In this document: positions 12,001 to 15,000 of the stretch, piece after piece
Layout of the letters: each line of letters starts with the position of its first letter
How positions within the stretch are numbered: the first letter of the stretch is position 1
IMG/VR virus record: IMGVR_UViG_2541047426_000030
From: a virus
Lineage: Duplodnaviria; Heunggongvirae; Uroviricota; Caudoviricetes
Reading direction: 5' to 3' (one strand)
Length of the DNA: 64,000 nucleotides
Position numbers: made by a program

Positions 12001-15000
12001 GCAAGATTACCCGCAAGCTCCTTCCGTGCTTCGCCAAACTGTTTCTGATACCCCAGATTTGTGGTGCCAGCAATATTGTCGTACTGCTGCTCACTGTTCA
12101 GGTCATCGACCTTTTCCATGAAGTTATCTTCAGCCGGGCGGAGGATATTTTTGTAATCCTGCCACCCTTTCCAGGCCACTTCTTCCTGTGCTATTTGCGC
12201 TGCTGTTGGTTTTACTTTGGTATCACCACCGCCTTTACTTCCACCCATAATGGCCCCCTGGATAACAAAAAACCCTGCCGGAGCAGGGTCAGAATGTGAA
12301 TTACAATGTTGGTTTAAACACAATGATGAAAACTGTAGCAGTCAGACCGCTATCCTGAACACCATGAAGCCATCCTCATCATCCGGCATTCGCTCAAAGC
12401 CCAGTCGTTTTCCCAGCCGGATAAATCCCCGCCTTGCCGTATGGAACTCAGCCCAGCGTCCGCCAGCCAGATGGGTTAATGTCTTCACCTCCGGCAGGTA
12501 ACGCTCAACGCTGTTACTCCCCGTACACACGCCCAGCAACACCAGAACATAAGGGATACCATCAGCACTGAGCACAGAACGCAGCACCAAAAAGCCATCA
12601 GGTGCCTCAAAACAAAACGCCTGCTTTTTAAGGCAGGCGTCTTTAACTTCATTCATAAATTCAGGGTTGCGGGAATTTCTCACAACACGCTGCATATACC
12701 AGAGAATTTTATCGTTCATTCTCTCACCTGAAACGGGTGCCATATCGGCTGAACCTCAGCAACCAGTTGACGGGGACTCTCGTCCCCGTCGCGGTTTTCC
12801 TACTGCTTACACTGTAAGAACGCCGCAAACTCCGCTCCCCACAAATTCAGCCGGAACTCACACAGTGAACCGTGCAACATCCAGATGGTGAAGATAACCG
12901 TCATGCAAATTGTGACGGTGATAAGCGATTTTTGCGACATAGCGCTTGACTCCTTTTACAGAGAGGCGCTAACCTTCTACTTGCTTAAGGTACGAAGTGT
13001 TAGGGCCTCGGGTTAACGTTAAGTTGACTCGGGGCCTTTCCACATCAGGCCTTCAGGTTCACCCTCCAGCCATCAGCCGAAAGGCACCCACGCATAATTT
13101 ACGGTTTTTGCCCTGTACGGGCAATAAAAAACCCGCCATCACAGCGGGTAGTAAACGGTTACCGGATACAGGTCAGAATTTCAGGCCAATGCCAGCAGTA
13201 ACGCCACTCGTGCGCCAGTCGCCAGAGCCGAAACCTTCGTAAGCCACATCCAGTGTAACACTCTCATTCAGGTTAAACTGTGCACCTGCAGCCCACGCAA
13301 GGGAGGTTTTTTTCGTGCTGTTGCTTTCAGAAAATCCGCCACTACTGTTAATATTGTCCTTAATTTTCAGGTCAGCGCTAACTTTAGCAACGCCCATCCC
13401 TGCCATCGCATATAAACTCATGTACTGATTAACCCGCCATGAAGGCCCCGCTAACAGACTCCAGTAATTCGCCCTGATATCCGTTCTGGCAGAAGCTGCC
13501 GGATTCTTAATCTTCCTGGTATGATCGGCTGACTGCACATCAATAAATGTCTGTGAGTTAGTGAGAGAACGCGTCCATGTAAAAGAGGTGATAACGCCAA
13601 AATCATCCGTTATCTCGTAGCGATACCTGATATTAATGCCCTGTGGATTTTTATCCTTGCCTTCATATCCACTGACCCGACCATCTGTATATTCGCCCAA
13701 TGAAGAAAAGTAGTTTCTGTTGACGAAATGACTGAAAGTCTCCCTGTTATGAGCAGTCGCATCCTTTACAAAATCCTTCAGTCCCGGAAACTGAAAGTGC
13801 GCATACCCCAGAGAAATTGTATGGTTTCCTTCTGCTGCATGTGCAGATAAATTTACACAGGCAATCCCGGAGATTGCACACACAACCAGTGTTGCTATAC
13901 TCTTCATTTAAGATATCCTGTATTCAGATAACACGCTAAACTTTTTAATAATACATCTTTTTAGACATTTTAAATGAATATTAAAGACTCGCTTCAACTA
14001 ATCATATACTGATGTATTAATAACCAAGACCTTATCTATATACGGCTTTCGAATATCCCATGTTGCACCGCCGGAATAATGCTCACAGGAATATATTTTA
14101 TTTCCTGTAGCACCAGTGGATGTGGTATAAATCGGTCGATCATAAGGAGTTCTTTTCCAGTTATAATACCCGACCAGTGCAGGCATGATTGCGCATGGAT
14201 ATCCAAGGTCCTTTTCAAATTTGATATCAACAGGTATTAACTTCGCGTCAAGCAGCATCATTTCGCCATGATAAATCATCTCACCGTCCGGGTTATACAT
14301 GGCGATACCATACTCAGAAGGTGGAGTAACCATATTCGCGAAAGCATAAACCGTCGTAACACCAGGGTTCGTTCCCCTGACAATTACATGAAGCCTTAGT
14401 GCATGATATCCATCAATCTGTTCATGCGTGTACATGACATCGGCCTTCTTCTCTGTTCTGATAAAGAAAAAACAACTTTTGCCTGACGGGATTGATGTTT
14501 TAAAAAAAGACTTTTCAGTCGCCGGTATGGTGCCTTTGTTGATCAGACACTGCGGCGTAAAACCTGGACTTATCCATACGCTGCCATCCGGCTTCATAAT
14601 GCTCAAACCATACATGACACTTATCCCCAGAATGTATAAATATAAGATCCCATACCCTGCTCAAGATTCGACCACGTCACCGTATTGCCATTAATGGTTA
14701 TCTTCGGTACTTTCCGATCCGCAAATACATTATTCCAGGGAAATAAACAACATACAGCCTGCAATGATTTCCCGTCGGGTTTATTCGTGTACGTCTTTGA
14801 GCCAGACTCCGCTGTAAATCTGTCCAGGAAAAATACCGGAGTCAACACGCCCGTAACATTAACGTTATTTCTGTTATAAATGGCAAAACCGTATTCCAAT
14901 ACTCACCTCCTGATCAGCGTAATCTGCCTATGCGAACAGCCAGTCGTCCATTCTGATCATAAACCTCAATTTTATCATTGCGGATCACCAGTCCTACATT

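What the first reader, a model, noticed from the sequence alone, without database searches (positions are those of the whole stretch)
12744..12990. Unannotated Hok/Gef-family type I toxin gene between lom and the virion genes
A 46-aa minus-strand ORF (12800..12940), below the ORF-track cutoff, has an N-terminal TM helix and the conserved Hok C-terminal motif SLCE-R...E-AAFL-C. A perfect palindrome GACGGGGAC-n4-GTCCCCGTC lies just 3' of the gene, as in hok mRNAs that end in a stable stem-loop. An antisense Sok-like RNA would be expected on the plus strand around 12940-13080.
Basis: partly seen in the sequence, partly recalled or inferred. Interest (0 to 1): 0.6.

Follow-up and report, generated by a model that had tools for sequence, protein, structure and literature searches.

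The report
Known Hok/Sok toxin–antitoxin module
The small gene is a real Hok-family membrane toxin with the usual hok-type RNA control elements, sitting in a Shiga-toxin phage, but databases already label it and the identical peptide has already been shown to be toxic, so it is essentially known.

Summary
A 46-codon ORF lies at 12800..12940 (-), and a perfect 9-bp palindrome lies at 12769-12790. The ORF passes Pfam HOK_GEF (33.2 bits, cutoff 22) and PHROG 251.

The window is phage VT2phi_272. Its RefSeq record already calls this CDS "MokW-like host killing", and PGAP calls it "Hok/Gef family protein". The identical peptide is entry 72_1589 of a 2025-26 Hok survey, which reports it toxic on overexpression.

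It is not the published hokW-sokW locus. That locus is a second one about 12 kb away in 933W/Sp5 and is absent from this phage.

Around the ORF I found a complete hok-type RNA module:
- a weak promoter with transcript start at 13089;
- 5'/3' tac-fbi pairing that closes a 355-nt mRNA;
- a tac/ucb alternative pairing after 3' truncation;
- a covarying 3' protective hairpin, which is the palindrome;
- a conserved antisense promoter (TTGACT-18-TAACCT) driving a ~59-nt Sok-like RNA at 12982-13040 (+).

One canonical part is missing: this Hok cluster has no mok start codon at the homologous position and no conserved leader ORF.

The mok-less layout is a minor open point.

The parts
13096..13124 (-). 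Predicted hok promoter. -35 TTGCCC is at 13124-13119, the spacer is 17 nt, -10 TAAATT is at 13101-13096, and 6 nt separate it from +1 at 13089. It starts directly after the lom terminator (13149-13131).
   Evidence: Read. Hexamers at the same spacing (TTGCCG/TTGCCC with TAGATT/TAAATT) recur in most relatives. It matches 8 of 12 consensus positions, so the consensus scan missed it. Transcription is not shown.
12735..13089 (-). Core hok-type mRNA of 355 nt, from the 5' tac (GGGUGCC...) to the 3' fbi (...GGCACCC). This is the conserved mobile unit.
   Evidence: In 53 unique relatives, conservation begins at GGGTGCC, ends at GGCACCC, and the flanks diverge. The MFE is -153.7 kcal/mol with z = -6.3 and is closed by 5'-3' pairing. 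On the alignment 90.9% of cells are paired, against 36-43% for slid controls, and 25 pairs carry double changes against 12.2 in shuffles. The Rfam sok model RF01794 matches 12927-13089 full-length in this orientation.
13073..13089 (-). tac-like 5' element (GGGUGCCUUUCGGCUGA).
   Evidence: Complementary to 12735-12741 and 12745-12752 (I11 and I6). Helices 1-3 are 88-98% paired across the family, with compensatory changes in helix 3. After 3' truncation it re-pairs with 13031-13041.
12735..12752 (-). fbi-like 3' element (UCAGCCGAUAUGGCACCC), which pairs with tac in the full-length RNA.
   Evidence: It is the last conserved block of the family alignment.
13031..13041 (-). ucb-like box (GGAAAGGCCCC). 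It pairs with the GAGGC region in the closed fold and with tac in the truncated fold.
   Evidence: I5: 13031-13040 with 13079-13088. Folds. AGCCCC is invariant in the alignment with R100 hok and hokW.
13005..13009 (-). GAGGC, the homologue of the mok Shine-Dalgarno of R1 and hokW. No start codon follows it here.
   Evidence: R100 has GAGGCATCCCTATG, hokW has GAGGCTCAATCCATG, and the window has GAGGCCCTAACACTTCG. GAGGC is invariant in the family.
12969..13043 (-). 24-codon GTG leader ORF. It ends at the invariant TAG at the foot of the hairpin that masks the hok SD. It is the best candidate for a mok substitute but is not conserved.
   Evidence: In relatives, frames from the conserved ATG/GTG end at -30/-31, at -38/-39, at +80, or much earlier. 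Six close relatives have no ORF reaching the hok SD region.
12950..12955 (-). hok Shine-Dalgarno AAGGAG, 9 nt before the ATG. In the predicted folds it is paired with CCUCU inside a local hairpin.
   Evidence: Helices 10 and 11 are. The unpaired probability is about 0.25 in both the full-length and truncated forms.
12800..12940 (-). hok-family toxin CDS, 46 aa (Hok cluster 72).
   Evidence: Pfam PF01848 33.2 bits, above GA 22. PHROG 251 85.8 bits. Median dN/dS is 0.20 and the length is 46 aa in 50 of 53 relatives. The identical peptide was catalogued and tested.
12769..12790 (-). GC-rich 9-bp stem-loop just 3' of the stop codon. It is the predicted 3'-terminal protective hairpin of the processed (truncated) mRNA.
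   Evidence: I3. In one search, helix 20 is 99.8% paired, with AU<->GC changes in 22 sequences and CG<->AU/GC changes in 28. It aligns with the equivalent hairpins of R100 hok and hokW. The role of this hairpin in R1 is described in PMC9841398.
12946..12975 (+). Predicted promoter of the Sok-like antisense RNA. -35 TTGACT is at 12946-12951, the spacer is 18 nt, and -10 TAACCT is at 12970-12975. It overlaps the hok SD region on the other strand.
   Evidence: TTGnnn-17/18-TAACCT is present in 50 of 52 relatives. The -10 is identical to the aligned box of the validated sokW (sokW promoter mutagenesis in PMC8621323). The consensus scan did not list it because -10 matches only 3 of 6 positions.
12982..13040 (+). 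Predicted Sok-like antisense RNA of about 59 nt. It has a 5' recognition tail of about 20 nt, then a 16-bp terminator hairpin (13004-13036) and UUU.
   Evidence: The ends were mapped from the annotated SokW of 933W through alignment A3. The 5' end is the 7th nt after the -10 box. The fold is -27.3 kcal/mol with z = -4.7. Its 5' target region (12981-12995) is the most variable bin inside the transcript. No expression data were available.
12607..12642 (-). First intrinsic-terminator-like hairpin downstream of the fbi (GACGCCUGCC-loop-GCAGGCGUUUUGUUUU). It lies inside the next ORF and is a possible real 3' end of the primary transcript in this phage.
   Evidence: In P2-like prophage contexts a terminator follows the fbi by only 18-25 nt. 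Which 3' end is used here is unknown.

Best explanation
This is a hok/sok-type type I toxin-antitoxin module carried as a moron by the Stx2a phage VT2phi_272, right after lom.

Shown by sequence and comparison: the minus strand encodes a 46-aa Hok-family inner-membrane toxin, embedded in a roughly 355-nt structured mRNA.

Inferred by homology with plasmid R1 hok and phage 933W hokW:
- The primary transcript comes from a weak constitutive promoter. It is locked in an untranslatable form by pairing of its 5' end (tac) with its 3' end (fbi).
- Slow 3' trimming back to the GC-rich palindrome hairpin removes the fbi. The 5' end then re-pairs with an internal box (ucb), which opens the leader.
- A ~59-nt antisense RNA, made from a conserved promoter on the plus strand, pairs with that leader. 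This blocks expression and triggers RNase III decay.
- When the short-lived antisense RNA disappears, through loss of the element or a shut-off of transcription such as prophage induction, the stable processed mRNA is translated and Hok damages the membrane.

Difference from the paradigm: no mok leader ORF is present, so how ribosomes reach the masked hok SD is unknown.

The physiological role in the lysogen is not determined. Candidates are prophage retention, help with lysis as for hokW, or abortive defence.
For: Protein:
- Pfam HOK_GEF scores above its gathering cutoff.
- PHROG 251 'MokW-like host killing' has E = 2.8e-24.
- 56 database clusters are all named Hok/Gef.
- Median dN/dS is 0.20 with conserved length.
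- The identical peptide is toxic on induction.

RNA:
- Conservation has sharp boundaries at tac and fbi.
- The MFE is closed by tac-fbi, with z = -6.3.
- Covariation is seen in the 3' hairpin and in a long-range leader/3' helix, and exceeds the shuffled and slid controls.
- tac-ucb refolding occurs after truncation.
- The element-by-element alignment with R100 hok and hokW includes an identical Sok -10 box.
- The antisense promoter is conserved in 50 of 52 sequences, and the antisense 5' end is hypervariable.
- The antisense RNA forms a terminator hairpin.
- Rfam sok gives a full-length hit with E = 1e-5.

Annotation: PGAP and RefSeq label it as Hok.
Against: - There are no expression data for either RNA in this phage.
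- No canonical mok exists: there is no ATG after GAGGC and no conserved leader ORF. In R1, mok translation up to the hok SD is mandatory (PMC9841398).
- Predicted accessibility of the hok SD does not rise after truncation (0.25 to 0.27). The route to translation is therefore unexplained and the locus could be poorly translatable.
- The Rfam score of 35.6 bits is below the gathering score of 59.
- Both promoters fall below the consensus-scan threshold.
- No terminator lies directly after the fbi in this context.
Confidence: 0.88

Rival explanations
1. A decaying or translationally silent hok relic. The toxin ORF and RNA structures persist, but because mok has been lost Hok is never made from the native transcript, and the locus has no present function.
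For: No mok start at the homologous position and no conserved leader ORF. In R1, mok start-codon mutations and premature stops upstream of hok abolish toxicity. The hok SD stays masked in both predicted conformations. Several K-12 hok loci are known to be inactivated; hokA/mokA is cut by IS150.
Against: The ORF is under purifying selection (dN/dS about 0.2) and keeps 46 codons in 50 of 53 sequences at 60-100% DNA identity. Both promoters, tac, fbi, ucb and the 3' hairpin are conserved, with covariation, in different prophage types. That is not expected of a dead locus. The absence of mok is a property of the whole cluster, not a lesion of this copy.
Confidence: 0.1
2. It is the already characterised hokW-sokW system of Sp5/933W, so there is nothing further to describe.
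For: RefSeq and pharokka label the CDS 'MokW-like host killing'. It lies in the same phage group as hokW.
Against: The published hokW encodes a 51-aa MKQQKAM...DYESEK peptide. None of its primers or probes match the window. In 933W it lies at 58.46-58.73 kb, while this locus lies between lom (44.7-45.4 kb) and L0129 (45.9 kb). VT2phi_272 ends at attR without the hokW region.
Confidence: 0.01
3. A chance small ORF with a fortuitous motif next to an ordinary terminator hairpin.
For: The ORF is short, and perfect 9-bp hairpins occur at about 7 sites in the window.
Against: Profile matches have E = 4e-8 and 2.8e-24. The whole 355-nt unit is conserved in hundreds of loci, with covariation.
Confidence: 0.01

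Closest known systems
hok/sok of plasmid R1/R100 (the type I TA paradigm; Pfam PF01848, Rfam RF01794)
   Same: Hok-family toxin. The 5' tac and 3' fbi close the full-length mRNA. Also shared are the AGCCCC ucb, the GAGGC box, the masked hok SD, the GC-rich 3' hairpin after the stop codon, and an antisense RNA gene whose -10 box lies about 30-35 nt upstream of the hok ATG and whose terminator is the complement of the leader hairpin.
   Different: The protein is only about 34% identical over 32 residues and is 46 aa, not 52. There is no mok ATG after GAGGC. The Sok -10 is TAACCT, not TATCCT. Rfam scores 35.6 bits here against 88.9 for R100. The host element is a prophage, not a plasmid.
hokW-sokW of Stx phages 933W and Sp5 (Takada et al. 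2021, PMC8621323)
   Same: A hok/sok module carried by the same group of Stx phages. The Sok -10 box (TAACCT) is identical and the architecture is the same. In 933W/Sp5 both loci coexist.
   Different: It is a different locus and Hok cluster: HokW is HokD/RelF-like and 51 aa, with an in-frame mokW. hokW sits about 12 kb away near the right prophage end and is absent from this phage. hokW has experimental support for the antitoxin, for RNase III/Hfq dependence and for aiding lysis and phage release. This locus has none of that.
Hok cluster 72 of the 2025-26 Hok survey (bioRxiv 10.1101/2025.08.07.668861); PGAP 'Hok/Gef family protein' WP_000078907.1
   Same: Identical peptide (72_1589). This is the thing itself.
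   Different: The survey deliberately analysed only the coding sequence and left Sok, mok and mRNA ends undefined. The RNA anatomy given here is additional.
HokA of E. coli K-12 (NCBIfam NF007290)
   Same: It is the closest named Hok by profile (E = 9e-10). It shares the C-terminal AAFLxCK motif.
   Different: The score of 38.4 bits is far below the equivalog cutoff of 89. HokA is 50 aa and is placed in a separate cluster in the survey (93_1378).

Membership tests
Hok/Gef toxin family (Pfam PF01848) | Profile match at or above the curated gathering score | tested here: met
   33.2 bits against cutoff 22, E = 4e-8, residues 8-44 on profile positions 6-42 of 42. PHROG 251 scores 85.8 bits.
Hok/Gef toxin family (Pfam PF01848) | Small protein (about 45-55 aa) with one N-terminal TM helix, the conserved Cys in the (S/D)LCE motif, and a C-terminal periplasmic part | tested here: met
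   46 aa. The best 17-aa hydropathy window is residues 6-22 (2.3). SLCE is at residues 25-28 and a second Cys is at 44. The family alignment has C27 and C44 invariant.
Hok/Gef toxin family (Pfam PF01848) | Toxic to E. coli when expressed | not testable with these tools
   From the literature: the identical peptide 72_1589 (plasmid LRP157) was among 45 homologues tested. Only 19_179, 60_1482 and 69_1540 were non-toxic (a preprint, with the toxicity figure not seen).
hok/sok type I TA locus (R1 paradigm) | Cis-encoded antisense RNA gene with its own promoter and terminator, overlapping the hok leader | tested here: met
   Sequence signature only. TTGnnn-17/18-TAACCT occurs in 50 of 52 relatives. 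The -10 is identical to that of the validated sokW. There is a 16-bp terminator hairpin plus UUU. The ends map onto annotated SokW. Transcription is not shown.
hok/sok type I TA locus (R1 paradigm) | Long-distance tac/fbi pairing of the mRNA 5' and 3' ends | tested here: met
   Perfect 7-nt and 8-nt complementarities. They close the MFE structure. They are 98% paired in 53 sequences, and the adjacent helix carries compensatory changes.
hok/sok type I TA locus (R1 paradigm) | Alternative tac/ucb pairing in the 3'-truncated mRNA | tested here: met
   After the fbi is removed, the MFE and centroid pair 13079-13089 with 13031-13041. This is a prediction only.
hok/sok type I TA locus (R1 paradigm) | Stable stem-loop right after the hok stop codon that forms the 3' end of the processed mRNA | tested here: met
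   A 9-bp GC-rich hairpin at 12769-12790 is 99.8% paired, with compensatory changes in 3 of its 9 pairs.
hok/sok type I TA locus (R1 paradigm) | mok leader ORF that starts in the Sok target region, reads at least to the hok SD, and is translationally coupled to hok | tested here: not met
   No start codon follows GAGGC where R100 and hokW have ATG. Leader ORFs from an upstream ATG/GTG end at variable places; only 13 of 51 overlap hok and six close relatives have none. The longer database proteins are C-terminal read-throughs.
Rfam RF01794 (sok / hok leader) | Covariance-model score at or above the gathering threshold of 59 bits | tested here: not met
   35.6 bits, E = 1.1e-5, full model 1-157, hok-sense orientation. 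Relatives score 30.9 and 47.3 bits. hokW scores 113.5 and R100 scores 88.9. This is a divergent branch: homologous but below the curated cutoff.
hokW-sokW of Sp5/933W | Same sequence and locus as the published system | tested here: not met
HokA (NCBIfam NF007290 equivalog) | Score at or above the cutoff of 89 bits | tested here: not met
   38.4 bits.

The most novel reading that the evidence does not exclude
Hok cluster 72, this locus included, is a functional mok-less lineage of hok/sok. It keeps the former mok Shine-Dalgarno (GAGGC), tac, ucb and fbi, but translates Hok without a coupled leader ORF. The route could be ribosome standby on the opened leader, or a short non-conserved uORF that ends at the foot of the SD hairpin. 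In 933W/Sp5 it would also act redundantly with hokW, which would explain why the hokW-sokW deletion gave only partial phenotypes.
Probability: 0.3. Interest if true: 0.4.

Novelty: already known. Interest (0 to 1): 0.2.

Why it matters
The value is mainly in bookkeeping.
- It corrects old Stx-phage annotations; the 933W and VT2-Sakai records lack this gene.
- It shows that 933W/Sp5-type phages carry two different hok/sok modules, while PA2/VT2phi_272-type phages carry only this one.
- The published hokW-sokW deletion strains therefore still contained a second Hok toxin. This matters for interpreting their partial effects on lysis timing and phage yield.
- The lack of a mok frame across a whole, otherwise intact Hok cluster is a small but testable deviation from the textbook hok regulation model.

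Tried and rejected
1. I first took the locus for the published hokW-sokW. I rejected this because the primers and probes do not match and the peptide and position differ.

2. I searched for mok in three ways: an ATG after GAGGC, in-frame N-terminal extensions, and any conserved leader ORF. None was found.

3. I tested the idea that in the truncated mRNA the freed GAGGC captures the anti-SD (GCCUC) and so unmasks the hok SD without mok. The MFE suggested it. Base-pair probabilities over 49 family members did not: SD unpaired went from 0.25 to 0.27. I dropped it as a shown mechanism.

4. The sigma-70 consensus scan found no promoter in 12600-13300. The promoters are inferred from homology and conservation instead.

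6. No PDB relative exists. I did not predict a structure because it would add nothing for a single TM helix.

7. A literature search by accession numbers and by the PHROG name found nothing specific to this locus.

8. I looked for a terminator right after the fbi. None is present in this context; the first lies 92-120 nt downstream inside the next ORF.
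Full report
**Observation.** The minus strand carries a 46-codon ORF at 12940..12800: MSQKSLITVTICMTVIFTIWMLHGSLCEFRLNLWGAEFAAFLQCKQ. Residues 6-22 form a strongly hydrophobic stretch, and the SLCE...E.AAFL.C motif is present as described. The perfect palindrome GACGGGGAC-GAGA-GTCCCCGTC lies at 12790-12769 and begins 9 nt after the stop codon. The ORF matches Pfam HOK_GEF at 33.2 bits (gathering score 22, E = 4e-8) and PHROG 251 "MokW-like host killing" at 85.8 bits. With 988 ORFs of at least 20 aa in the window, this is far beyond chance.

**Where the window comes from and what is annotated.** The window is the reverse complement of Stx2a phage VT2phi_272 (HQ424691 / NC_028656), with window x equal to record 65956 - x. 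It starts in host DNA beyond attR. The locus lies between lom (13173..13907) and a PHROG 610 gene, followed by the virion genes.
- The CDS is annotated in the source records as "conserved hypothetical protein" (GenBank) and "MokW-like host killing" (RefSeq).
- RefSeq E. coli genomes annotate it as "Hok/Gef family protein" WP_000078907.1.
- It is missing from the 1999 phage 933W record.

So "unannotated" is true only for old records.

**Not hokW.** A 2021 paper characterises hokW-sokW of Sakai prophage 5 (PMC8621323). That toxin is a 51-aa HokD-like peptide. Its primers and probes do not match the window. In 933W, hokW lies at 58.46-58.73 kb with annotated mokW and SokW, whereas the present locus sits at about 45.5-45.8 kb. 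Thus 933W/Sp5-type phages carry two hok modules, while VT2phi_272 ends at attR without the hokW region and has only this one. The paper never mentions the second locus, so its deletion strains retained it.

**Already catalogued and tested.** A 2025-26 survey of Hok diversity (bioRxiv 10.1101/2025.08.07.668861) lists this exact peptide as 72_1589, in an abundant cluster. It was cloned as LRP157 for arabinose-induced toxicity assays. The text states that 42 of 45 homologues were toxic and names the three exceptions, none of which is 72_1589. [quoted passage not shown] It explicitly left Sok, mok and the mRNA ends unanalysed.

**Family.** The protein search returned 56 clusters from E. coli, Shigella and Salmonella, nearly all exactly 46 aa and all named Hok/Gef. 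Longer entries are C-terminal read-throughs. The closest NCBIfam model is HokA, but the score is far below its cutoff (38 against 89 bits). I fetched 87 loci and reduced them to 53 unique sequences at 60-100% identity. Some relatives lie at the end of P2-like prophages next to ogr. The ORF is under purifying selection (median dN/dS 0.20) and keeps 46 codons in 50 of 53 sequences.

**RNA anatomy.** Conservation in the 53-sequence alignment starts abruptly at GGGTGCC (window 13089) and ends abruptly at GGCACCC (12735), and the flanks are unrelated between contexts. Upstream there is a conserved weak promoter: TTGCCC-17-TAAATT, then 6 nt to 13089.
- *Full-length fold.* The 5' end is complementary to the 3' end: 13083-13089 with 12735-12741, and 13073-13080 with 12745-12752. 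These pairings close the MFE fold of the 355-nt RNA (-153.7 kcal/mol, z = -6.3).
- *Covariation.* Mapped on the alignment, the fold is 90.9% paired, against 36-43% for slid controls. It has 25 pairs with changes on both sides, against 12.2 in shuffles (0 of 500 shuffles reach it). The 3' palindrome and a long-range leader/3' helix show clear compensatory swaps. The structure was derived from the window sequence, which favours it, so the per-pair double changes are the stronger evidence.
- *Truncated fold.* Removing the fbi, as 3' processing does in R1, makes the 5' end re-pair with GGAAAGGCCCC at 13031-13041, which is the tac/ucb switch.
- *Comparison with reference loci.* Alignment with R100 hok and 933W hokW shows element-by-element correspondence: tac, AGCCCC, leader hairpin, GAGGC, Sok -10, hok SD, 3' hairpin and fbi.
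- *Rfam.* The sok model, which is built in the hok-sense orientation, hits 12927-13089 over its full length at 35.6 bits. That is below the gathering score of 59. The same model gives 113.5 bits for hokW and 88.9 for R100, and 31-47 bits for other members of this cluster. This is a divergent branch that automatic ncRNA annotation misses.

**Antisense RNA.** On the plus strand, TTGACT (12946-12951), an 18-nt spacer and TAACCT (12970-12975) form a promoter that is conserved as TTGnnn-17/18-TAACCT in 50 of 52 relatives. The -10 is identical to the aligned box of sokW, whose promoter was validated by mutagenesis. Mapping the annotated SokW ends through the alignment gives 12982..13039. The 5' end is the 7th nt after the -10 box. 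The 59-nt RNA folds into a loosely structured 5' region, a 16-bp hairpin and UUU (z = -4.7). The part of the transcript complementary to its 5' end (12981-12995) is the most variable bin inside the module, and is as variable as the untranscribed flanks. This fits diversification of antisense specificity, though that reading is inference.

**What is missing.** R100 and hokW have the mok ATG 7-8 nt after GAGGC. This cluster has none. Frames from a conserved upstream ATG/GTG (13045/13043) end at variable positions. In the window, a 24-codon GTG ORF stops at the invariant TAG (12971-12969), which is invariant because it is part of the Sok -10. Only 13 of 51 relatives have a long frame overlapping hok, and six close relatives have no ORF reaching the hok SD region. 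In R1, mok translation up to the hok SD is required (PMC9841398). I tested whether refolding alone could unmask the hok SD, and base-pair probabilities say no (0.25 to 0.27). How Hok is translated here is therefore open. Purifying selection on the ORF argues that it is translated.

**3' end.** No terminator follows the fbi directly in this phage. The first terminator-like hairpin lies 92-120 nt downstream, inside the next ORF. In P2-like contexts one follows after about 20 nt. The primary 3' end is undetermined.

**Verdict.** The gene is an already annotated, catalogued and toxicity-tested Hok-family toxin, and the surrounding RNA elements make it a complete hok/sok-type module apart from mok. 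Novelty is low. The residual points of interest are the mok-less design of this cluster and its coexistence with hokW in 933W/Sp5.

Noticed in passing
window 1-1032 and the whole window: The window is the reverse complement of phage VT2phi_272 (window x = record 65956 - x). attR is at about 1008-1032, and 1-1007 is host DNA (a formate/nitrite transporter family gene). The prophage ends directly after the huge LPD5-domain gene, without the 933W right-arm genes L0135-L0140 and hokW.
   Followed up: yes
L002 / L005 (phage 933W AF125520, about 45.5-45.8 kb and 58.46-58.73 kb): 933W and Sp5 carry two different hok modules. The published hokW-sokW deletion study does not mention the second one, so its mutants still had a Hok toxin gene.
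   Followed up: partly
window 12607-12642, both strands: A 10-bp GC-rich hairpin with T-runs on both sides looks like a bidirectional intrinsic terminator. It lies inside the conserved PHROG 610 ORF (12342-12719) and is kept in a 91%-identical relative (L017). It could end the hok transcript, or attenuate the virion-side gene.
   Followed up: partly
window 12719-12743: The longest form of the downstream ORF (133 aa, ATG at 12743) starts inside the fbi element. RefSeq and GenBank use the ATG at 12719 (125 aa), which has its own GGTGAGAG Shine-Dalgarno and matches PHROG 610 end to end. The shorter start is more likely.
   Followed up: partly
window 12768-12800, + strand: Read on the plus strand, the hok 3' palindrome is followed by CGGTTTTCCT and is flagged as terminator-like. 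It might also stop transcription coming from the opposite direction.
   Followed up: no
window 39307-39566; 40975-41223; 34528-34644: Rfam gathering-level hits: AsxR and STnc100 sRNAs near the stx2 region, three tRNA genes, and an ALIL pseudoknot. The last is the frameshift signal of an IS3-family element, implying an insertion sequence inside the prophage.
   Followed up: no
window 50833-51020 and 62793-62975: Two copies, about 12 kb apart, of the isrK plus C4-antisense RNA pair (P1/P7-type immunity-like RNAs) on the plus strand.
   Followed up: no
L006, L007, L009 (genome contigs): Enterobacterial hok loci, one of them 100% identical to the window peptide, appear on short contigs of assemblies labelled Xanthomonas pisi, a Planococcaceae MAG and Vagococcus sp. 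These are probably contamination or mis-binning, not real host range.
   Followed up: no
L093 (E. coli UTI89, next to serS) and L087, L069, L008, L010: The ~75-82% identical relatives of this module sit at the very end of P2-like prophages beside ogr, followed about 20 nt after the fbi by a strong terminator. The same 355-nt unit has moved between unrelated prophage types.
   Followed up: partly
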